Below, in pieces: positions 40,182 to 48,930 of a stretch of DNA of 64,000 nt; within the stretch, counting starts at the first letter, position 1; the number at the start of each line of letters is the position of its first letter. The notes beneath the pieces are model-generated. The model did not search any database, was not told the origin of the DNA, and saw nothing but the letters and a program-made list of their open reading frames with translations. Position numbers and translations under genes: made by a program. The stretch comes from the human T2T-CHM13v2.0 reference genome, Homo sapiens, in NCBI RefSeq assembly GCF_009914755.1, contig NC_060929.1; one strand, given 5' to 3'.

Positions 40182-42998
40182 GTAATTGAACATGAGTTTT
40201 TCATTATTTTCTTTATGAACTTAATTATTTTCCTTAAAAATGATGAAACAAGATTCTCTGAATTACTGATTATCTCTTTATATTCTAGGTGTTTTTCTCT
40301 GGTACTGGGAATAGAGTTCCAAATTTAAACTCAGCCAGGACAATTGGGATGATAATGTGTGTTTCTATCCTCTCCTTCACTCCCCACTGTTTCTAACAAA
40401 AATGTATTAATTTTATATGTTTATGTGTCTGTCTCTTTGAGATTGTGCACACATACTAAAAATACACGTACCTCTGTTCAGCATTTTCTGAACTTTGCTA
40501 TTAATAATTGTTGATTATCTAAATTTAAAAAATAGTTTACTATATAGTTAAGACAATAACAAAAAATGTATTGCAAATGTAAATATTTCATCTAATATTT
40601 TTTCCCCAGTCCACAGTATATGAACTAACATTGTCACTGACACAGATGGCTTCTGGCATGGCATTTATTCTTAACTTTTCTGAATTTCTACATTTCTGAC
40701 CTACTTAAACTCAGTTAAGTGTTTCTGTGGCTCTAGTGTTGCTTAGCAATAGTTGATTAAATAACTAATGCTCGTGTTCAATTTATAATTTTATGTGTAG
40801 ATGTTCATCTTTTGAAAGGAGTTAAAAATGTAGATACAGATATATATCCTTGTAAAACCAATATGAATGCCATAGTCATATGGCCCAAGTGTACAAGACA
40901 TGATTTTTCTTTAAGATTTAACTTTATACTTACTCACTAGATTTTACCCAAGCATTATCTTTCTTTCTTTATTAAATATAAAATGTGTTCTTAAAAACAG
41001 GTGAACATACAACTTCAATTAGCCATTTTTAAAAATTCCTTAAATAAAATTTTCAGAAATGCCTAAAATATATTAGTACCTCATATCAGTTTACATGAAA
41101 TCTCAGCCTATAATTGTTCTTTTTAGTGCAGTCCTCAACTTTAAATGAACTTTAAATAGGTAAATATCCACAAGCATTAGGCTACTTCATTCTCATCTAT
41201 GCATTTTATTTCATCTAGTAACTCTGTACACACTGTTGAGGCTATTTGAACTTTTGTGCTTTTTCTAAGGCACTTGGAAATTTCTTAAGCAGAAGAGTAA
41301 CATAGGTGTGTTTTATAAATAAATTTCTGGTGACGTTGTGGAACTAGATTTTAGAGGAAGAGGCTGTAGTCAAAGAGATTGAGTTATGATGCCGTTTAGT
41401 AATCTAGATAAGAAATGAAATGTGAACTTTTATCAGTGCAGTTAAGACAAATGAGTTCAAGAGAGAGCTCTGAAATAGACTTTTAACAAGAGTTTACTTC
41501 TGATTGAATATTCCTGTAATCAATCAGAAAGGAAAAGGGATAAAGCTTGAGATTGTGCCTTAAATAACTGGTTGTTGGGAATGTCTTTGGCTATTAGTGG
41601 ACATAGAGGAGGAGTAGGAGATTTGGAAGAAGAGATGAGTTTGGTTTTTATGTTCTGTGTAGTTTTCATCTTATATGGCTGTTTTCCTACTCCTGTCTGA
41701 CAGATATACCTGGATTTCAGTACATAAGAAGCAAGTAGTAACTATCTCATTGTTCAGTGTGCCAATCCGCTTTTTTTTTTAATTGCCTGAAATATTTACA
41801 TATTTTGAAATTCACGGTACGGGTTCTTGAAGAGTATATGACAGTAGTTTCCTAGTTGTTTTCACTAGTAATTTAGAGGTGTGAATTAGTTGATTGAAAC
41901 TAAAGAGAAGCCTTATGAGAAAAGAAACAGGGCAAACTGTGTCTGAACACAAATCTGCACCTGATAACTCCCATTTTCAAGGATATCATACTTTGAAGTT
42001 ACGAGGGGTGCTTGTTCTCTCATCATTTGCTTGCCCAGACTCCTGCCTTCCAGACCACTAGTTGACTACACTGTAGTATCTTCTAGCTCATCAGTTGGGA
42101 AGCATTTCTAGCAAATACCAAAGTATATATCCTGCCGTTACCATAACTCTACTGCATTCCTTTTAGGATATTTTATTCTCCATGTCTTTCTTAAATGTAT
42201 GCTGTGTTTGCCTGTTTCAGTTCTTAAAAAGTATTCACATGTGAGACTGCTTTTACCTAACATACGTGAAACTTTTATCTTAAATGGATTCATGTTTTAT
42301 AAACCACATTTTTAAAAGAATTTAAATTTTTAAAGAATTACTTTCAAAAAAATTTTTTAAAAAGCATTTAGAGAGAATTTTAGTCTTAACAGTTCCGAAT
42401 CCTAGCTGTGCTGCTCAGTTAGCTACTTGGACAAATAACTTTGACTTTCCTTACCTTGGTGGATTCATGTGTATGTTAGGTGCAATGAAAGGAACTACTA
42501 GGATTGTTTAAAAATTAGATGGGTTAATACATGCAAAGCACTTAGAAGGGTACCTGACACATATAACTAACTGCTAAATAAGTGTTTATTGCTATTATCT
42601 TCATCCTCATCATCACCATCTTTTAAATACAAAGAAATTATCAGCTGATTAAAGTTATTTTTTTAAAACAGCAGAATATTGTGCAATAGGTTATTTTATG
42701 ATGGTAAAATAATTATTTTTCTTAAAAATTTATAGTTCATAATTTTAAAATATAAACAGATTTCATACATCAAAGATTAAGGCTTTTTTTATTATTATAC
42801 TTTAAGTTTTAGGATACATGTGCACAACGTGCAGGTTTGTTTCATATGTATACATGTGCCATGTTGGTGTGCTGCACCCATTAACTCGTCATTTAGCATT
42901 AGGTATATCTCCTAATGCTATCCCTCCCCCCTCCCCCGACCCCACAACAGTCCCCAGTGTGTGATGTTCCCCTTCCTGTGTCCATCTGTTCTCATTGT

Positions 42999-45900
42999 TC
43001 AATTTCCACCTGTGAGTGAGAACATGCGGTGTTTGGTTTTTCGTCCTTGTGATAGTTTGCTGAGAATGATGGTTTCCAGCTTCATCCATGTCCCTACAAA
43101 GGACATGAACTTATCATTTTTTATGGCTGCATAGTATTCACATTTTCTTAATCCAGTCTATCATTGTTGGACATTTGCGTTGGTTCCAAGTCTTTGCTAT
43201 TGTGAAGAGTGCCACAATAAACATACGTGTGCATGTGTCTTAATAGCAGCATGATTTATAATCCTTTAGGTATATACCCAGTAATGGGATTGCTGGGTCA
43301 AATGGTATTTCTAGTTCTAGATCCCTGAGGAATCGCCACACTGACTTCCACAATGGTTGAACTAGTTTACAGTCCCACCAACAGTGTAAAAGTGTTCCTA
43401 TTTCTCCACATCCTCTCCAGCACCTGTTGTTTCCTGACTTTTTAATGATTGCCATTCTAACTGGTGTGAGATGGTATCTATCTCATTGTGGTTTTGATTT
43501 GTATTTCTCTGATGGCCAGTGATGATGAGCACTTTTTCATGTGTTTTTTGGCTGCATAAGTGTCTTCTTTTGAGAAGTGTCTGTTCATATGCTTTGCCTA
43601 CTTTTTGATGGGGTTGTTTTTTTCTTGTAAATTTGTTTGAGTTCATTGTAGATTCTGGATATTAGCCCTTTGTCAGATGAGTAGGTTGCAAAAATTTTCT
43701 CCCGTTCTGTAGGTTGCCTGTTCACTCTGATGGTGGTTTCTTTTGCTGTGCAGAAGCTCTTTAGTTTAATTAGATCCCATTTGTCAATTTTGGCTTTTGT
43801 TGCCATTGCTTTTGGTGTTTTAGACATGAAGTCCTTGCCCATGCCTATGTCCTGAATGGTATTGCCTAGGTTTTCTTCTAGGGTTTTTATGGTTTTAGGT
43901 CTAACGTTTAAGTCTTTAATGCATCTTGAATTAATTTTTGTATAAGGTGTAAGGAAGGGATCCAGTTTCAGCTTTCTCCATATGGCTAGCCAGTTTTCCC
44001 AGCACCATTTATTAAATAGGGAATCCTTTCCCCATTTCTTGTTTTTGTCAGGTTTGTCAAAGATCAGATAGTTGTAGATATGCGGCATTATTTCTGAGGG
44101 CTCTGTTCTGTTCCATTGGTCTATATCCCTGTTTTGGTACCAGTACCGTGCCGTTTTGGTTACTGTAGCCTTGTAGTGTAGTTTGAAGTCAGGTAGCGTG
44201 ATGCCTCCAGCTTTGTTTTTTTTGGCTTAGGATTGTCTTGGCAATGCAGGCTCTTTTTTGGTTCCATATGAACTTTAAAGTAGTTTTTTCCAATTCTGTG
44301 AAGAGAGTCATTGGTAGCTTGATGGGGATGGCATTGAATCTATAAATTACCTTGGGCAGTATGGCCATTTTCATGATATTGATTCTTCCTACCCATGAGT
44401 ATGAGATGTTCTTCCATTTGTTTGTATCCTCTTTTATTTCATTGAGCAGTGGTTTGTAGTTCTCCTTGAAGAGGTCCTTCACATCCCTTGTAAGTTGGAT
44501 TCCTAGGTGTTTTATTCTCTTTGAAGCAATTGTGAATGGGAGTTCACTCATGATTTGGCTCTCTGTTTGTCTGTTATTGGTGTATAAGGATGCTTGTGAT
44601 TTTTACACATTGATTTTATATCCTGAGACTTTGCTGAAGTTGCTTATCAGCTTAAGGAGATTTTGGGCTGAGATGATAGGGTTTTCTAGATATACAATCA
44701 TGTCATGTGCAAACAGGGACAATTTGACTTCCTCTTTTCCTAATTGAATACCCTTTATTTCCTTCTCCTGCCTGATTACCCTGGCCAGAATTTCCAACAC
44801 TATGTTGAATAGGAGTGGTGAGAGAGGGCATCCCTGTCTTGTGCCAGTTTTCAAAGGGAATGCTTCCAGTTTTTGTCCATTCAGTATGATATTGGCTGTG
44901 GGTTTGTCATAGACAGCTCTTACTATTTTGAGATACGTCCCATCAGTACCTAATTTATTGAGAGTTTTTACCATGAAGGGTTGTTGAATTTTGTCAAAGG
45001 CTTTTTCTGCACCTATTGAGATAATGATGTGGTTTTTGTCTTTGGTTCTGTTTATATGCTGGATTACGTTTATTGATTTTCATATGTTGAACCAGCCTTG
45101 CATCCCAGGGATGAAGCCCACTTGATCATGGTGGATAAGCTTTTTGATGTGTTGCTGGATTCAGTTTGCCAGTATTTTATTGAGGATTTTTGCATCAATG
45201 TTCATCAAGGATATTGGTCTAAAATTCTCTTTTTTGGTTGTGTCTCTGCCTGGCTTTCGTATCAGGATGATGCTGGCCTCATAAAATGAGTTAGGGAGGA
45301 TTCCCTCTTTTTCTGTTGACTGGAATAGTTTCAGAAGGAATGGTACCAGCTCCTCCTTGTAACTCTGGTAGAATTCAGCTGTGAATCCATGTGGTCCTGG
45401 ACTTTTTTTGGTTGGTAAGCTATTAATTATTGCCTCAATTTCAGAGCCTGTTATTGGTCTATTCAGAGATTCAACTTCTTCCTGGTTTAGTCTTGGGAGA
45501 GTGTTATGTGTCAAGGAATTTATCCATTTCTTCTAGATTTTCTAGTTTATTTGCGTAGAGGTGTTTTTAGTTTTCTCTGATGGTAGTTTGTATTTCTGTG
45601 GGATTGGTGGTGATATGCCCTTTGTCATTTTTTATTGCGTCTGTTTGATTCTTCTCTCTTTTCTTCTTTATTAGTCTTGCTAGCAGTCTATCAATTCTGT
45701 TGATCCTTTCAAAAAACCAGCTCCTGGATTCATTAATTTTTTGAAGGGTTTTTTGTGTCTCTATCTCCTTCAGTTCTGCTCTGATCTTAGTTATTTCTTG
45801 TCTTCTGCTAGTTTTTGAATGTGTTTGCTCTTGCTTCTCTAGTGCTTTTAATTGTGATGTTAGGGTGTCAATTTTAGATCTTTCCTGCTTTCTCTTGTGG

Positions 45901-48916: not shown

Positions 48917-48930
48917 AATTTCTCGATTAA
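48466..48930 (+). CDS. L1 ORF0 (antisense 5'UTR ORF), open for 154 aa; expression unknown
   Basis: GCAATGG Kozak context; MAGAPPPASLWPCSLISDCCASN... matches the primate ORF0 N-terminus; stop TAA at 48928-48930 lies in the TSD. Confidence 0.6.
   Translation: MAGAPPPASLWPCSLISDCCASNERGSMGVGPSEPVAGYNLLVCGLLSPLEKRSIRAGVTRFSRCHLSPLPLTRKGNSLTPCVFQVRRCLTLLRLRHGVLHPLFCTHCPALPSEMNPVPQLEVQKTPVFCVAHAGSCRLDLFLFGHLGSSQFLD

What the first reader, a model, noticed from the sequence alone, without database searches (positions are those of the whole stretch)
40182..48930. Gene-breaking architecture that would separate Erbin's LRR half from its PDZ
Seen: the full-length L1 is antisense to ERBIN, in the intron right after the last linker exon. 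It keeps AATAAA at 43216-43221 on the ERBIN strand (GCCACAATAAACATACGTGTGCATGTGTC, with GU-rich downstream sequence), about 430 bp from the L1 3' end. Established: antisense L1s can split genes through an antisense poly(A) site in the 3' part of ORF2 plus the antisense promoter. Inference: this hexamer is that site, and the locus can give an upstream LRR+linker transcript and a downstream PDZ transcript.
Basis: partly seen in the sequence, partly recalled or inferred. Interest (0 to 1): 0.7.

Follow-up and report, generated by a model that had tools for sequence, protein, structure and literature searches.

The report
Ordinary antisense L1PA4 in ERBIN intron

Summary
The sequence observation holds. 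A 6,134-bp full-length L1 with broken ORFs lies on the minus strand at 42784-48917, in the intron after exon 38636-40181. AATAAA is at 43216-43221 on the ERBIN strand, 432 nt from the L1 3' end, followed by a GU-rich stretch.

The hexamer is not specific to this locus. It is the reverse complement of the Phe-Ile codons in a conserved ORF2 segment. The 29-mer around it occurs 20,259 times in this genome (up to 2 mismatches; control 0).

The supplied RefSeq table has no exon ending in the L1 and none starting in it. It does list a transcript that would lack the PDZ domain. That transcript splices 40181 to 40289, adds 35 residues and stops at 40396. Its terminal exon runs through the whole L1 to 50791, 18 nt past AATAAA 50768 and just before a (TG)n run.

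A published table lists this L1 (L1PA4) as giving L1-flank chimeric reads in brain and glioma. The entry is not validated, and same-strand ERBIN RNA would give the same reads. The L1 antisense ATG (48466) and donor (48720|48721) are in frame with all downstream ERBIN exons, and mouse Erbb2ip has an L1-antisense fusion transcript. A PDZ transcript therefore remains possible but is not shown.

Verdict: ordinary element, gene-breaking not supported, low interest.

The parts
38636..40181 (+). Large ERBIN linker exon. It ends on a codon boundary (...EAKKLEK); donor AAG|GTAATT.
   Evidence: Supplied table; frames; donor.
40289..50791 (+). RefSeq alternative terminal exon, reached over a 107-nt intron (40182-40288). 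It adds 35 residues, with the stop codon at 40394-40396. The rest is a 3' UTR of about 10.4 kb that contains the whole L1. This would be a PDZ-less Erbin.
   Evidence: Supplied table; acceptor and tail; no Pfam family in the tail.
42775..42783 (.). Candidate target-site duplication, left copy (GATTAAGGC).
   Evidence: Read; matches 8 of 9 with 48925-48933.
42784..48917 (-). Full-length L1 (L1PA4 in the published table), 6,134 bp, coding frames broken.
43216..43221 (+). AATAAA on the ERBIN strand. It is the reverse complement of the Phe-Ile codons in the ORF2 segment ...RMFIVALFTIAKTW....
   Evidence: The 29-mer context occurs 20,259 times in the genome.
43141..43239 (-). ORF2 C-terminal segment, 31 of 33 residues identical to human L1 ORF2p residues 1191-1223.
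48317..48517 (+). Expected place of the L1 antisense promoter (L1 positions +400 to +600).
   Evidence: Positions taken from the text of Kaer 2011 and mapped onto this copy. No activity data.
48466..48930 (+). ORF0-like antisense ORF, 154 aa, ATG at L1 position about 452. It reads out of the L1 5' end into the flank.
   Evidence: The ATG is kept in 11 of 11 related copies and 5 of 11 have an ORF over 100 aa. No Pfam family.
48718..48726 (+). Strong 5' splice site CAG|GTGAGG (last exon base 48720), phase 0 from ATG 48466.
   Evidence: GTGAG is kept in 11 of 11 related copies.
48925..48933 (.). Candidate target-site duplication, right copy (GATTAAGAC).
50768..50773 (+). AATAAA of the annotated intronic poly(A) site. 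The exon ends 18 nt later, at 50791.
   Evidence: supplied table.
50821..50880 (+). (TG)n run of about 60 nt, a downstream GU-rich element for the 50791 site.
54094..54237 (+). Optional 144-nt linker exon, phase 0 at both ends.
   Evidence: Supplied table.
57386..57508 (+). Next constitutive ERBIN exon (linker), starts in phase 0.
61533..63747 (+). The three exons that encode the PDZ domain.
   Evidence: Exon 62092-62166 matches PDZ profile positions 26-51 of 81, E 1.3e-05; translation.

Best explanation
This is an ordinary, dead, full-length L1PA4 that inserted backwards into an ERBIN intron roughly 15-25 million years ago. The AATAAA on the ERBIN strand is a by-product of conserved ORF2 codons. 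The antisense ATG and splice donor are standard equipment of this L1 subfamily.

ERBIN pre-mRNA is normally transcribed through the element and the intron is spliced out. The one annotated PDZ-less transcript arises another way. A cryptic acceptor at 40289 opens a terminal exon that runs through the L1 and is cleaved at a non-L1 poly(A) site at 50791.

Shown: the anatomy, the copy numbers, the reading frames, and the contents of the annotation. Inferred: that the L1 hexamer is little used, and that the published chimeric reads come mainly from ERBIN's own RNA.
For: - The hexamer is the reverse complement of Phe-Ile codons in an ORF2 segment that matches human ORF2p at 31 of 33 residues.
- The exact 29-mer is the common family version. 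It occurs 10,152 times forward and 10,107 times reverse with up to 2 mismatches; the reversed control gives 0.
- The annotated exon 40289-50791 passes 12 canonical hexamers on its strand, 7 AATAAA (including 43216) and 5 ATTAAA, before the one it uses (supplied table). The site it uses is followed by a (TG)n run of about 60 nt.
- On this strand the L1 is poor in hexamers: 2 in 6.1 kb, against 5 in 2.6 kb upstream and 21 in 8.5 kb downstream.
- The supplied table of 18 transcripts has no exon ending or starting inside the L1.
- ERBIN/ERBB2IP is absent from the main text and 11 held supplements of the 988-transcript EST catalogue of L1 antisense-promoter transcripts, from the pan-cancer antisense-promoter paper text, from the Attig 2018 text and 5 held supplements, and from the Singh 2018 tables of differential intronic polyadenylation.
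- Attig 2018 (section read) reports that MATR3 and PTBP1 repress poly(A) and splice sites in antisense L1s, mainly young ones deep in introns.
- The 5' UTR CpG observed/expected ratio is 0.35. CpG sites differ in 30-43% of cases from related copies, which fits long-term methylation.
Against: - RefSeq is not a 3'-end atlas, so low or tissue-specific cleavage at about 43235-43250 would not appear in it. I could not query any poly(A)-site or CAGE database.
- The hexamer has a plausible GU-rich element just downstream.
- Pinson 2022, supplementary table S2, lists this very L1 as producing chimeric reads: 26 reads over 8 gliomas and 27 over 3 control brains.
- Mouse Erbb2ip has an L1-antisense fusion transcript spliced to its downstream exons in testis (Li 2014, section read).
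- The motif count for PTBP1/MATR3 sites was only mildly raised in the L1 (TCTT 12.2 per kb against 9.2 and 7.4 in the flanks; ATCTT lower), so it does not show insulation.
Confidence: 0.72

Rival explanations
1. Only the promoter half works. The L1PA4 antisense promoter fires when ERBIN is transcribed. It gives a transcript that starts near 48317-48517 and either stays unspliced or splices from 48720 into downstream ERBIN exons. The product would be a short PDZ-containing protein, possibly fused in frame to the ORF0-like peptide.
For: - This L1 is listed as producing chimeric transcripts in brain and glioma (Id_1048; L1 side maps to window 48515-48916, unique side to 48896-49243).
- ATG 48466 and donor CAG|GTGAGG at 48720 are 255 nt apart, so phase 0. 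Exons 54094, 57386, 60241, 61533, 62092 and 63640 all start in phase 0.
- The ATG and the GTGAG donor are kept in 11 of 11 related copies.
- Criscione 2016 (passages) places antisense start sites of L1PA2-8 in the first 600 bp.
- Mouse Erbb2ip has an independent L1-antisense fusion transcript.
Against: - The table marks this entry 'LCT_validated FALSE' and 'LCT-EST litterature FALSE'.
- The reads come from total RNA, on the same strand as ERBIN, and lie wholly inside the annotated exon 40289-50791. ERBIN pre-mRNA or that isoform would give them too.
- The authors themselves conclude that host-locus transcription drives these signals.
- There is no RefSeq start in the L1.
- ERBB2IP is absent from the EST-based list of spliced antisense-promoter transcripts.
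Confidence: 0.13
2. Full gene-breaking. A meaningful share of ERBIN transcripts is cleaved after the L1 hexamer at 43216, giving an LRR plus linker mRNA. The antisense promoter supplies a separate PDZ mRNA.
For: - All sequence parts are present and intact in their family form.
- 43216 is the only canonical AATAAA on the L1's antisense strand, so it is the natural candidate for the published antisense site.
- The gene-breaking model is in print (Wheelan 2005; known to me only from citations and recall, since the paper is not held).
Against: - An mRNA ending at 43240 would need intron retention or the 40289 acceptor, and the one annotated transcript that uses 40289 runs on to 50791.
- No annotated 3' end lies in the L1.
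- More than 20,000 copies carry the same site, while Lee 2008 counted only 857 L1-associated poly(A) sites in all (30 conserved plus 827 non-conserved). The prior for any single copy is therefore low.
- Antisense L1s are reported to be insulated from 3' processing.
- No paper found links ERBIN to gene-breaking.
Confidence: 0.05
3. The L1 acts indirectly. By slowing polymerase or binding repressive RNA-binding proteins, it delays removal of the 17-kb intron. That favours the cryptic acceptor at 40289 and the 50791 poly(A) site, so it raises the PDZ-less isoform without using its own hexamer.
For: - Kaer 2011 (abstract and passages) reports forced exonization and cryptic polyadenylation associated with intronic L1s.
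- Attig 2018 reports repression extending about 2 kb around antisense L1s.
- The acceptor at 40289 lies 2.5 kb upstream of the L1, and the poly(A) site 1.9 kb downstream.
Against: - The genome-wide set in Kaer 2011 was of L1s in tandem orientation, with termination upstream of the L1. Neither holds here.
- ERBB2IP is not in the one small Kaer supplement that is held.
- Nothing in the sequence ties the 40289 acceptor or the 50768 site to the L1.
Confidence: 0.08

Closest known systems
L1 'gene-breaking' (Wheelan, Aizawa, Han & Boeke 2005, Genome Res 15:1073)
   Same: A full-length L1 antisense in an intron, with a canonical poly(A) hexamer on the gene strand in the 3' part of ORF2 and an antisense-promoter region in the 5' UTR that points at the downstream exons.
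   Different: That model is defined by transcripts that end in the L1 and transcripts that start in it. Neither is annotated here, and the one annotated truncating transcript reads through the L1. The paper and its list of 15 genes could not be read, so I cannot say whether ERBIN is on it.
L1 chimeric transcripts and ORF0 fusions (Criscione 2016; Pinson 2022; Denli 2015 as cited in them)
   Same: An L1PA4 with a 5' UTR, antisense to an expressed host gene, with an ORF0-type ATG and a splice donor. It is listed by CLIFinder as Id_1048.
   Different: The entry is not validated, and the chimeric reads are unspliced and on the host-gene strand. The ORF here is 154 aa, against 71 aa stated for L1HS ORF0. 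No spliced fusion is recorded in the EST catalogue.
Intronic polyadenylation with a terminal exon opened by a cryptic acceptor
   Same: The alternative acceptor at 40289, an early in-frame stop at 40396, and a canonical AATAAA with a GU-rich downstream element at 50768-50880 would give a C-terminally truncated protein.
   Different: The terminal exon is unusually long (10.5 kb) and carries a whole antisense L1 in its 3' UTR. I do not know what evidence stands behind the RefSeq model.
Mouse L1-antisense fusion transcript at Erbb2ip (Li et al. 2014, NAR 42:4546)
   Same: An L1 antisense promoter inside the orthologous gene drives a transcript spliced to downstream exons, seen in testis.
   Different: It is an independent rodent insertion with a different promoter (in ORF1, not the 5' UTR). 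Which intron it lies in is unknown to me, because the supplement could not be read.

Membership tests
Full-length primate L1 (L1PA4) | 5' UTR, ORF1, ORF2 (endonuclease, middle and C-terminal segments), 3' UTR and poly(A) tail, about 6.1 kb | tested here: met
   ORF1p, endonuclease, ORF2p 908-1066 at 148 of 159 identical, ORF2p 1191-1223 at 31 of 33. T run at 42784-42790. The 5' UTR is 92-93% identical to other full-length copies.
Full-length primate L1 (L1PA4) | Subfamily assignment | not tested
   The label L1PA4 is taken from the RepeatMasker column of Pinson 2022 table S2. My own figure is a median non-CpG pairwise divergence of 4.3% to 11 related copies, which fits that age only through recalled rates.
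Full-length primate L1 (L1PA4) | Target-site duplication | tested here: inconclusive
   A 9-mer matches at 8 of 9 positions (42775-42783 and 48925-48933), but 7-8 unexplained bases lie between the L1 5' end and the right copy.
L1 gene-breaking locus | Full-length L1 antisense to the host gene within an intron | tested here: met
   supplied table.
L1 gene-breaking locus | Antisense poly(A) signal of the L1 present | tested here: met
   AATAAA at 43216 with a GU-rich downstream stretch. Its identity with the published site could not be checked.
L1 gene-breaking locus | Transcripts with the upstream exons that end at the L1 antisense site | tested here: not met
   The supplied RefSeq table has no exon ending in the L1, and exon 40289-50791 reads through it. 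3'-end atlases were not available, so this covers annotation only.
L1 gene-breaking locus | Transcripts that start at the antisense promoter and include the downstream exons | tested here: inconclusive
   No such RefSeq exon. Unspliced, unvalidated chimeric reads on the host strand. Absent from the EST catalogue.
L1 ORF0 | Antisense ORF in the 5' UTR downstream of the antisense promoter, with splice donors | tested here: met
   ATG 48466 at L1 position about 452; donor at 48720 scoring 8 of 9. Both are shared by 11 of 11 related copies. Only one of the two donors mentioned by Pinson 2022 scores 7 of 9 or better here.
L1 ORF0 | Length of 71 aa as stated for L1HS | tested here: not met
   154 aa here. 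Related copies range from 16 to 171 aa. The 71-aa figure comes from Criscione 2016.
Intronic polyadenylation isoform | Alternative terminal exon with an in-frame stop and a canonical poly(A) signal plus downstream element | tested here: met
   Acceptor with a pyrimidine tract at 40289 and stop at 40394-40396. AATAAA 50768, exon end 50791, (TG)n at 50821-50880.

The most novel reading that the evidence does not exclude
In some tissue (testis, brain or early embryo) the L1PA4 antisense promoter drives a capped transcript that splices from 48720 into ERBIN exon 54094 or 57386. It would be translated from the ORF0-type ATG as an in-frame 85-residue L1 peptide fused to the Erbin C-terminus with its PDZ domain. 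Together with the L1-antisense Erbb2ip transcript reported in mouse, this would mean that independent L1 insertions in primates and rodents both gave the same gene a PDZ-only promoter.
Probability: 0.06. Interest if true: 0.55.

Novelty: already known. Interest (0 to 1): 0.15.

Why it matters
Erbin's LRR half and its PDZ domain bind different partners, so a natural way to express them separately would be of interest. As it stands, the element is a catalogued L1PA4 with family-standard features. The PDZ-less transcript is already in RefSeq and ends at a non-L1 site. The useful result is negative: a canonical hexamer in an antisense L1 is present in more than 20,000 copies and predicts nothing by itself. 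Only the in-frame donor and the mouse parallel deserve a look in long-read or CAGE data.

Tried and rejected
- Position of the published antisense poly(A) site: Wheelan 2005 is not held. The phrase 'major antisense polyadenylation' gave 0 papers. Other citing papers give no position. Left open.
- ERBIN in the literature on intronic polyadenylation or L1: 0 papers for 'erbin' with 'intronic polyadenylation'. Only one irrelevant paper for Erbin isoforms 'lacking the PDZ'.
- Supplements of Criscione 2016, Attig 2018, Singh 2018 and Kaer 2011: 0 occurrences. The Singh tables list only differential events. The Kaer supplement held is one 4-kb file. The Li 2014 supplement could not be read.
- PTBP1/MATR3 motif density as a test of insulation: only a mild difference, so not informative.
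- U1-like sites (8 of 9 or better) between 40190 and 43700: none found.
- Retrocopies of ERBIN that might preserve an old 3' end: only the gene itself matches 39300-40700.
- Rfam scan of 40000-57500: nothing.
- Pfam on the 35-residue tail and on the 154-aa ORF: nothing.
- Older L1 fragments in the window (2584-3914 and 14641-14759): 0 of 2 carry the hexamer at the homologous place. The site therefore belongs to the younger family, not to all L1s.

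
Full report
**What is there**

The intron after ERBIN exon 38636-40181 runs to 57385. A 6,134-bp L1 lies in it on the minus strand at 42784-48917.
- Its poly(A) tail reads as a T run at 42784-42790.
- Homology to other full-length copies stops at 48916/48917.
- A candidate 9-bp target-site duplication flanks it (42775-42783 and 48925-48933, 8 of 9 identical).
- Seven minus-strand ORFs of 103-167 aa remain. Pieces match solved human L1 proteins: ORF1p, the ORF2p endonuclease, ORF2p 908-1066 at 148 of 159 identical and ORF2p 1191-1223 at 31 of 33 identical.

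So the element is full-length but dead. A published table gives it as L1PA4, 6,134 bp, minus strand, at hg19 chr5:65,353,381-65,359,514 (Pinson 2022, supplementary table S2, row read).

Its median non-CpG divergence from 11 related full-length copies is 4.3% over 2.4 kb, range 3.3-5.1%. Those 11 were the listed loci among 40 copies scored out of 6,650 candidates. That is about 2% per copy, or some 15-25 million years at recalled neutral rates. An age of about 18 million years for L1PA4 is likewise recalled, not read.

**The hexamer**

AATAAA is at 43216-43221 on the ERBIN strand, 432 nt from the L1 3' end, with GTGTGCATGTGTCTT just downstream. It is the only + strand AATAAA in the L1. There is also one ATTAAA, at 44011.

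Translating the minus strand shows that the hexamer is the reverse complement of the Phe and Ile codons in ...RMFIVALFTIAKTW.... Human ORF2p keeps that segment.

The 29-mer around the hexamer occurs 10,152 times forward and 10,107 times reverse in this genome with up to 2 mismatches. The reversed control gives 0, and many copies are exact. This copy therefore carries the plain family version and shows no local change.

Two much older L1 fragments in the window lack the hexamer at the homologous place (0 of 2). The site belongs to the younger family rather than to all L1s.

**What the annotation says**

The supplied RefSeq table lists an exon 40289-50791 in another transcript. Splicing 40181 to 40289 keeps the frame, adds 35 residues and stops at 40394-40396. 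This would be an Erbin with LRR and linker but no PDZ domain.

That exon runs through the entire L1. It passes 7 AATAAA (43216 among them) and 5 ATTAAA before ending 18 nt after AATAAA 50768. A (TG)n run of about 60 nt follows at 50821-50880. No listed exon ends near 43240 and none starts in the L1 5' UTR.

So an upstream-half transcript is annotated, but through a cryptic acceptor and a non-L1 poly(A) site.

Exons 57386-57508 and 60241-60447, and the optional 54094-54237, still encode linker. The PDZ domain is in 61533-63747.

**The promoter half**

By the positions given in Kaer 2011 (+400 to +600), the antisense promoter would lie at about 48317-48517.
- A + strand ORF of 154 aa starts at 48466 (L1 position about 452) and reads out of the L1.
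- A strong donor CAG|GTGAGG lies at 48720|48721, 255 nt from the ATG, so in phase 0.
- Every downstream ERBIN coding exon starts in phase 0. Splicing to any of them would be in frame.

These features are generic. Among 11 related copies the ATG is kept in 11 and GTGAG in 11, and the ORF exceeds 100 aa in 5.

**Published transcript data**

Pinson 2022 lists this L1 as chimera Id_1048. In window coordinates the L1 side is 48515-48916 and the unique side 48896-49243.
- Reads in 8 gliomas: 2, 3, 2, 10, 0, 1, 7, 1.
- Reads in 3 control brains: 2, 19, 6.
- It is marked not validated and not in the EST literature.

The data are total RNA, the reads are on ERBIN's strand, and they fall inside the annotated exon 40289-50791. 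ERBIN's own RNA would give them. The authors conclude that host-locus transcription is the main driver of such signals (passages).

ERBB2IP/ERBIN is absent from the following:
- the text and 11 held supplements of the 988-transcript EST catalogue;
- the text of the pan-cancer antisense-promoter paper;
- the text and 5 held supplements of Attig 2018;
- the differential intronic-polyadenylation tables of Singh 2018;
- the one small held supplement of Kaer 2011.

In mouse, Li 2014 reports L1-antisense fusion transcripts spliced to downstream exons of Erbb2ip in testis (section read). The supplement with the details was unreadable.

**Prior odds**

[quoted passage not shown] Against more than 20,000 copies of this one motif, the chance that any given copy is used is small (my inference).

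Attig 2018 reports that MATR3 and PTBP1 repress poly(A) and splice sites in and around antisense L1s (section read). My own motif count did not add to this.

**Verdict**

The evidence at hand points to read-through of the L1 hexamer, and a different site is used for the annotated PDZ-less isoform.

My odds:
- About 0.72 that the L1 is a passive passenger.
- About 0.13 that only its antisense promoter contributes a transcript.
- About 0.08 that it acts indirectly on the annotated isoform.
- About 0.05 for gene-breaking as proposed.

Three things were out of reach: the position of the published antisense site, Wheelan's gene list, and all 3'-end and CAGE atlases. Searches for ERBIN with gene-breaking or L1 antisense promoters in the held library found only the mouse paper and the Pinson table.

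Noticed in passing
window 49681-49865 and 50911-51098: A direct repeat of about 190 bp at 80% identity, 1.23 kb apart. The annotated poly(A) site (50791) and the (TG)n run (50821-50880) lie just before the second copy. Each copy carries its own AATAAA (49810 and 51043).
   Followed up: partly
window 2584-3914, 4523-4762 and 14641-14759: [quoted passage not shown] They lack the AATAAA at the homologous position.
   Followed up: partly
window 54094-63747: The optional exon and all five last coding exons of ERBIN start in phase 0 and have lengths divisible by three. Any of them can be skipped, or joined to a phase-0 donor, without breaking the frame.
   Followed up: yes
window 48466-48930 and loci L010-L020: In this L1 subfamily the ORF0-type frame is much longer than the 71 aa stated for L1HS. 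It reaches 154-171 aa where unbroken and reads out through the L1 5' end into flanking DNA.
   Followed up: partly
window 55239-55276, minus strand: Eight overlapping AATAAA matches in an (AAAT)n-type simple repeat. Over the whole window AATAAA is more frequent than in shuffles (212 against 147, sd 11).
   Followed up: no
mouse Erbb2ip (literature, not in the window): Li et al. 2014 report an L1-antisense-initiated fusion transcript spliced to downstream Erbb2ip exons in mouse testis, where the conventional transcript was not detected.
   Followed up: partly
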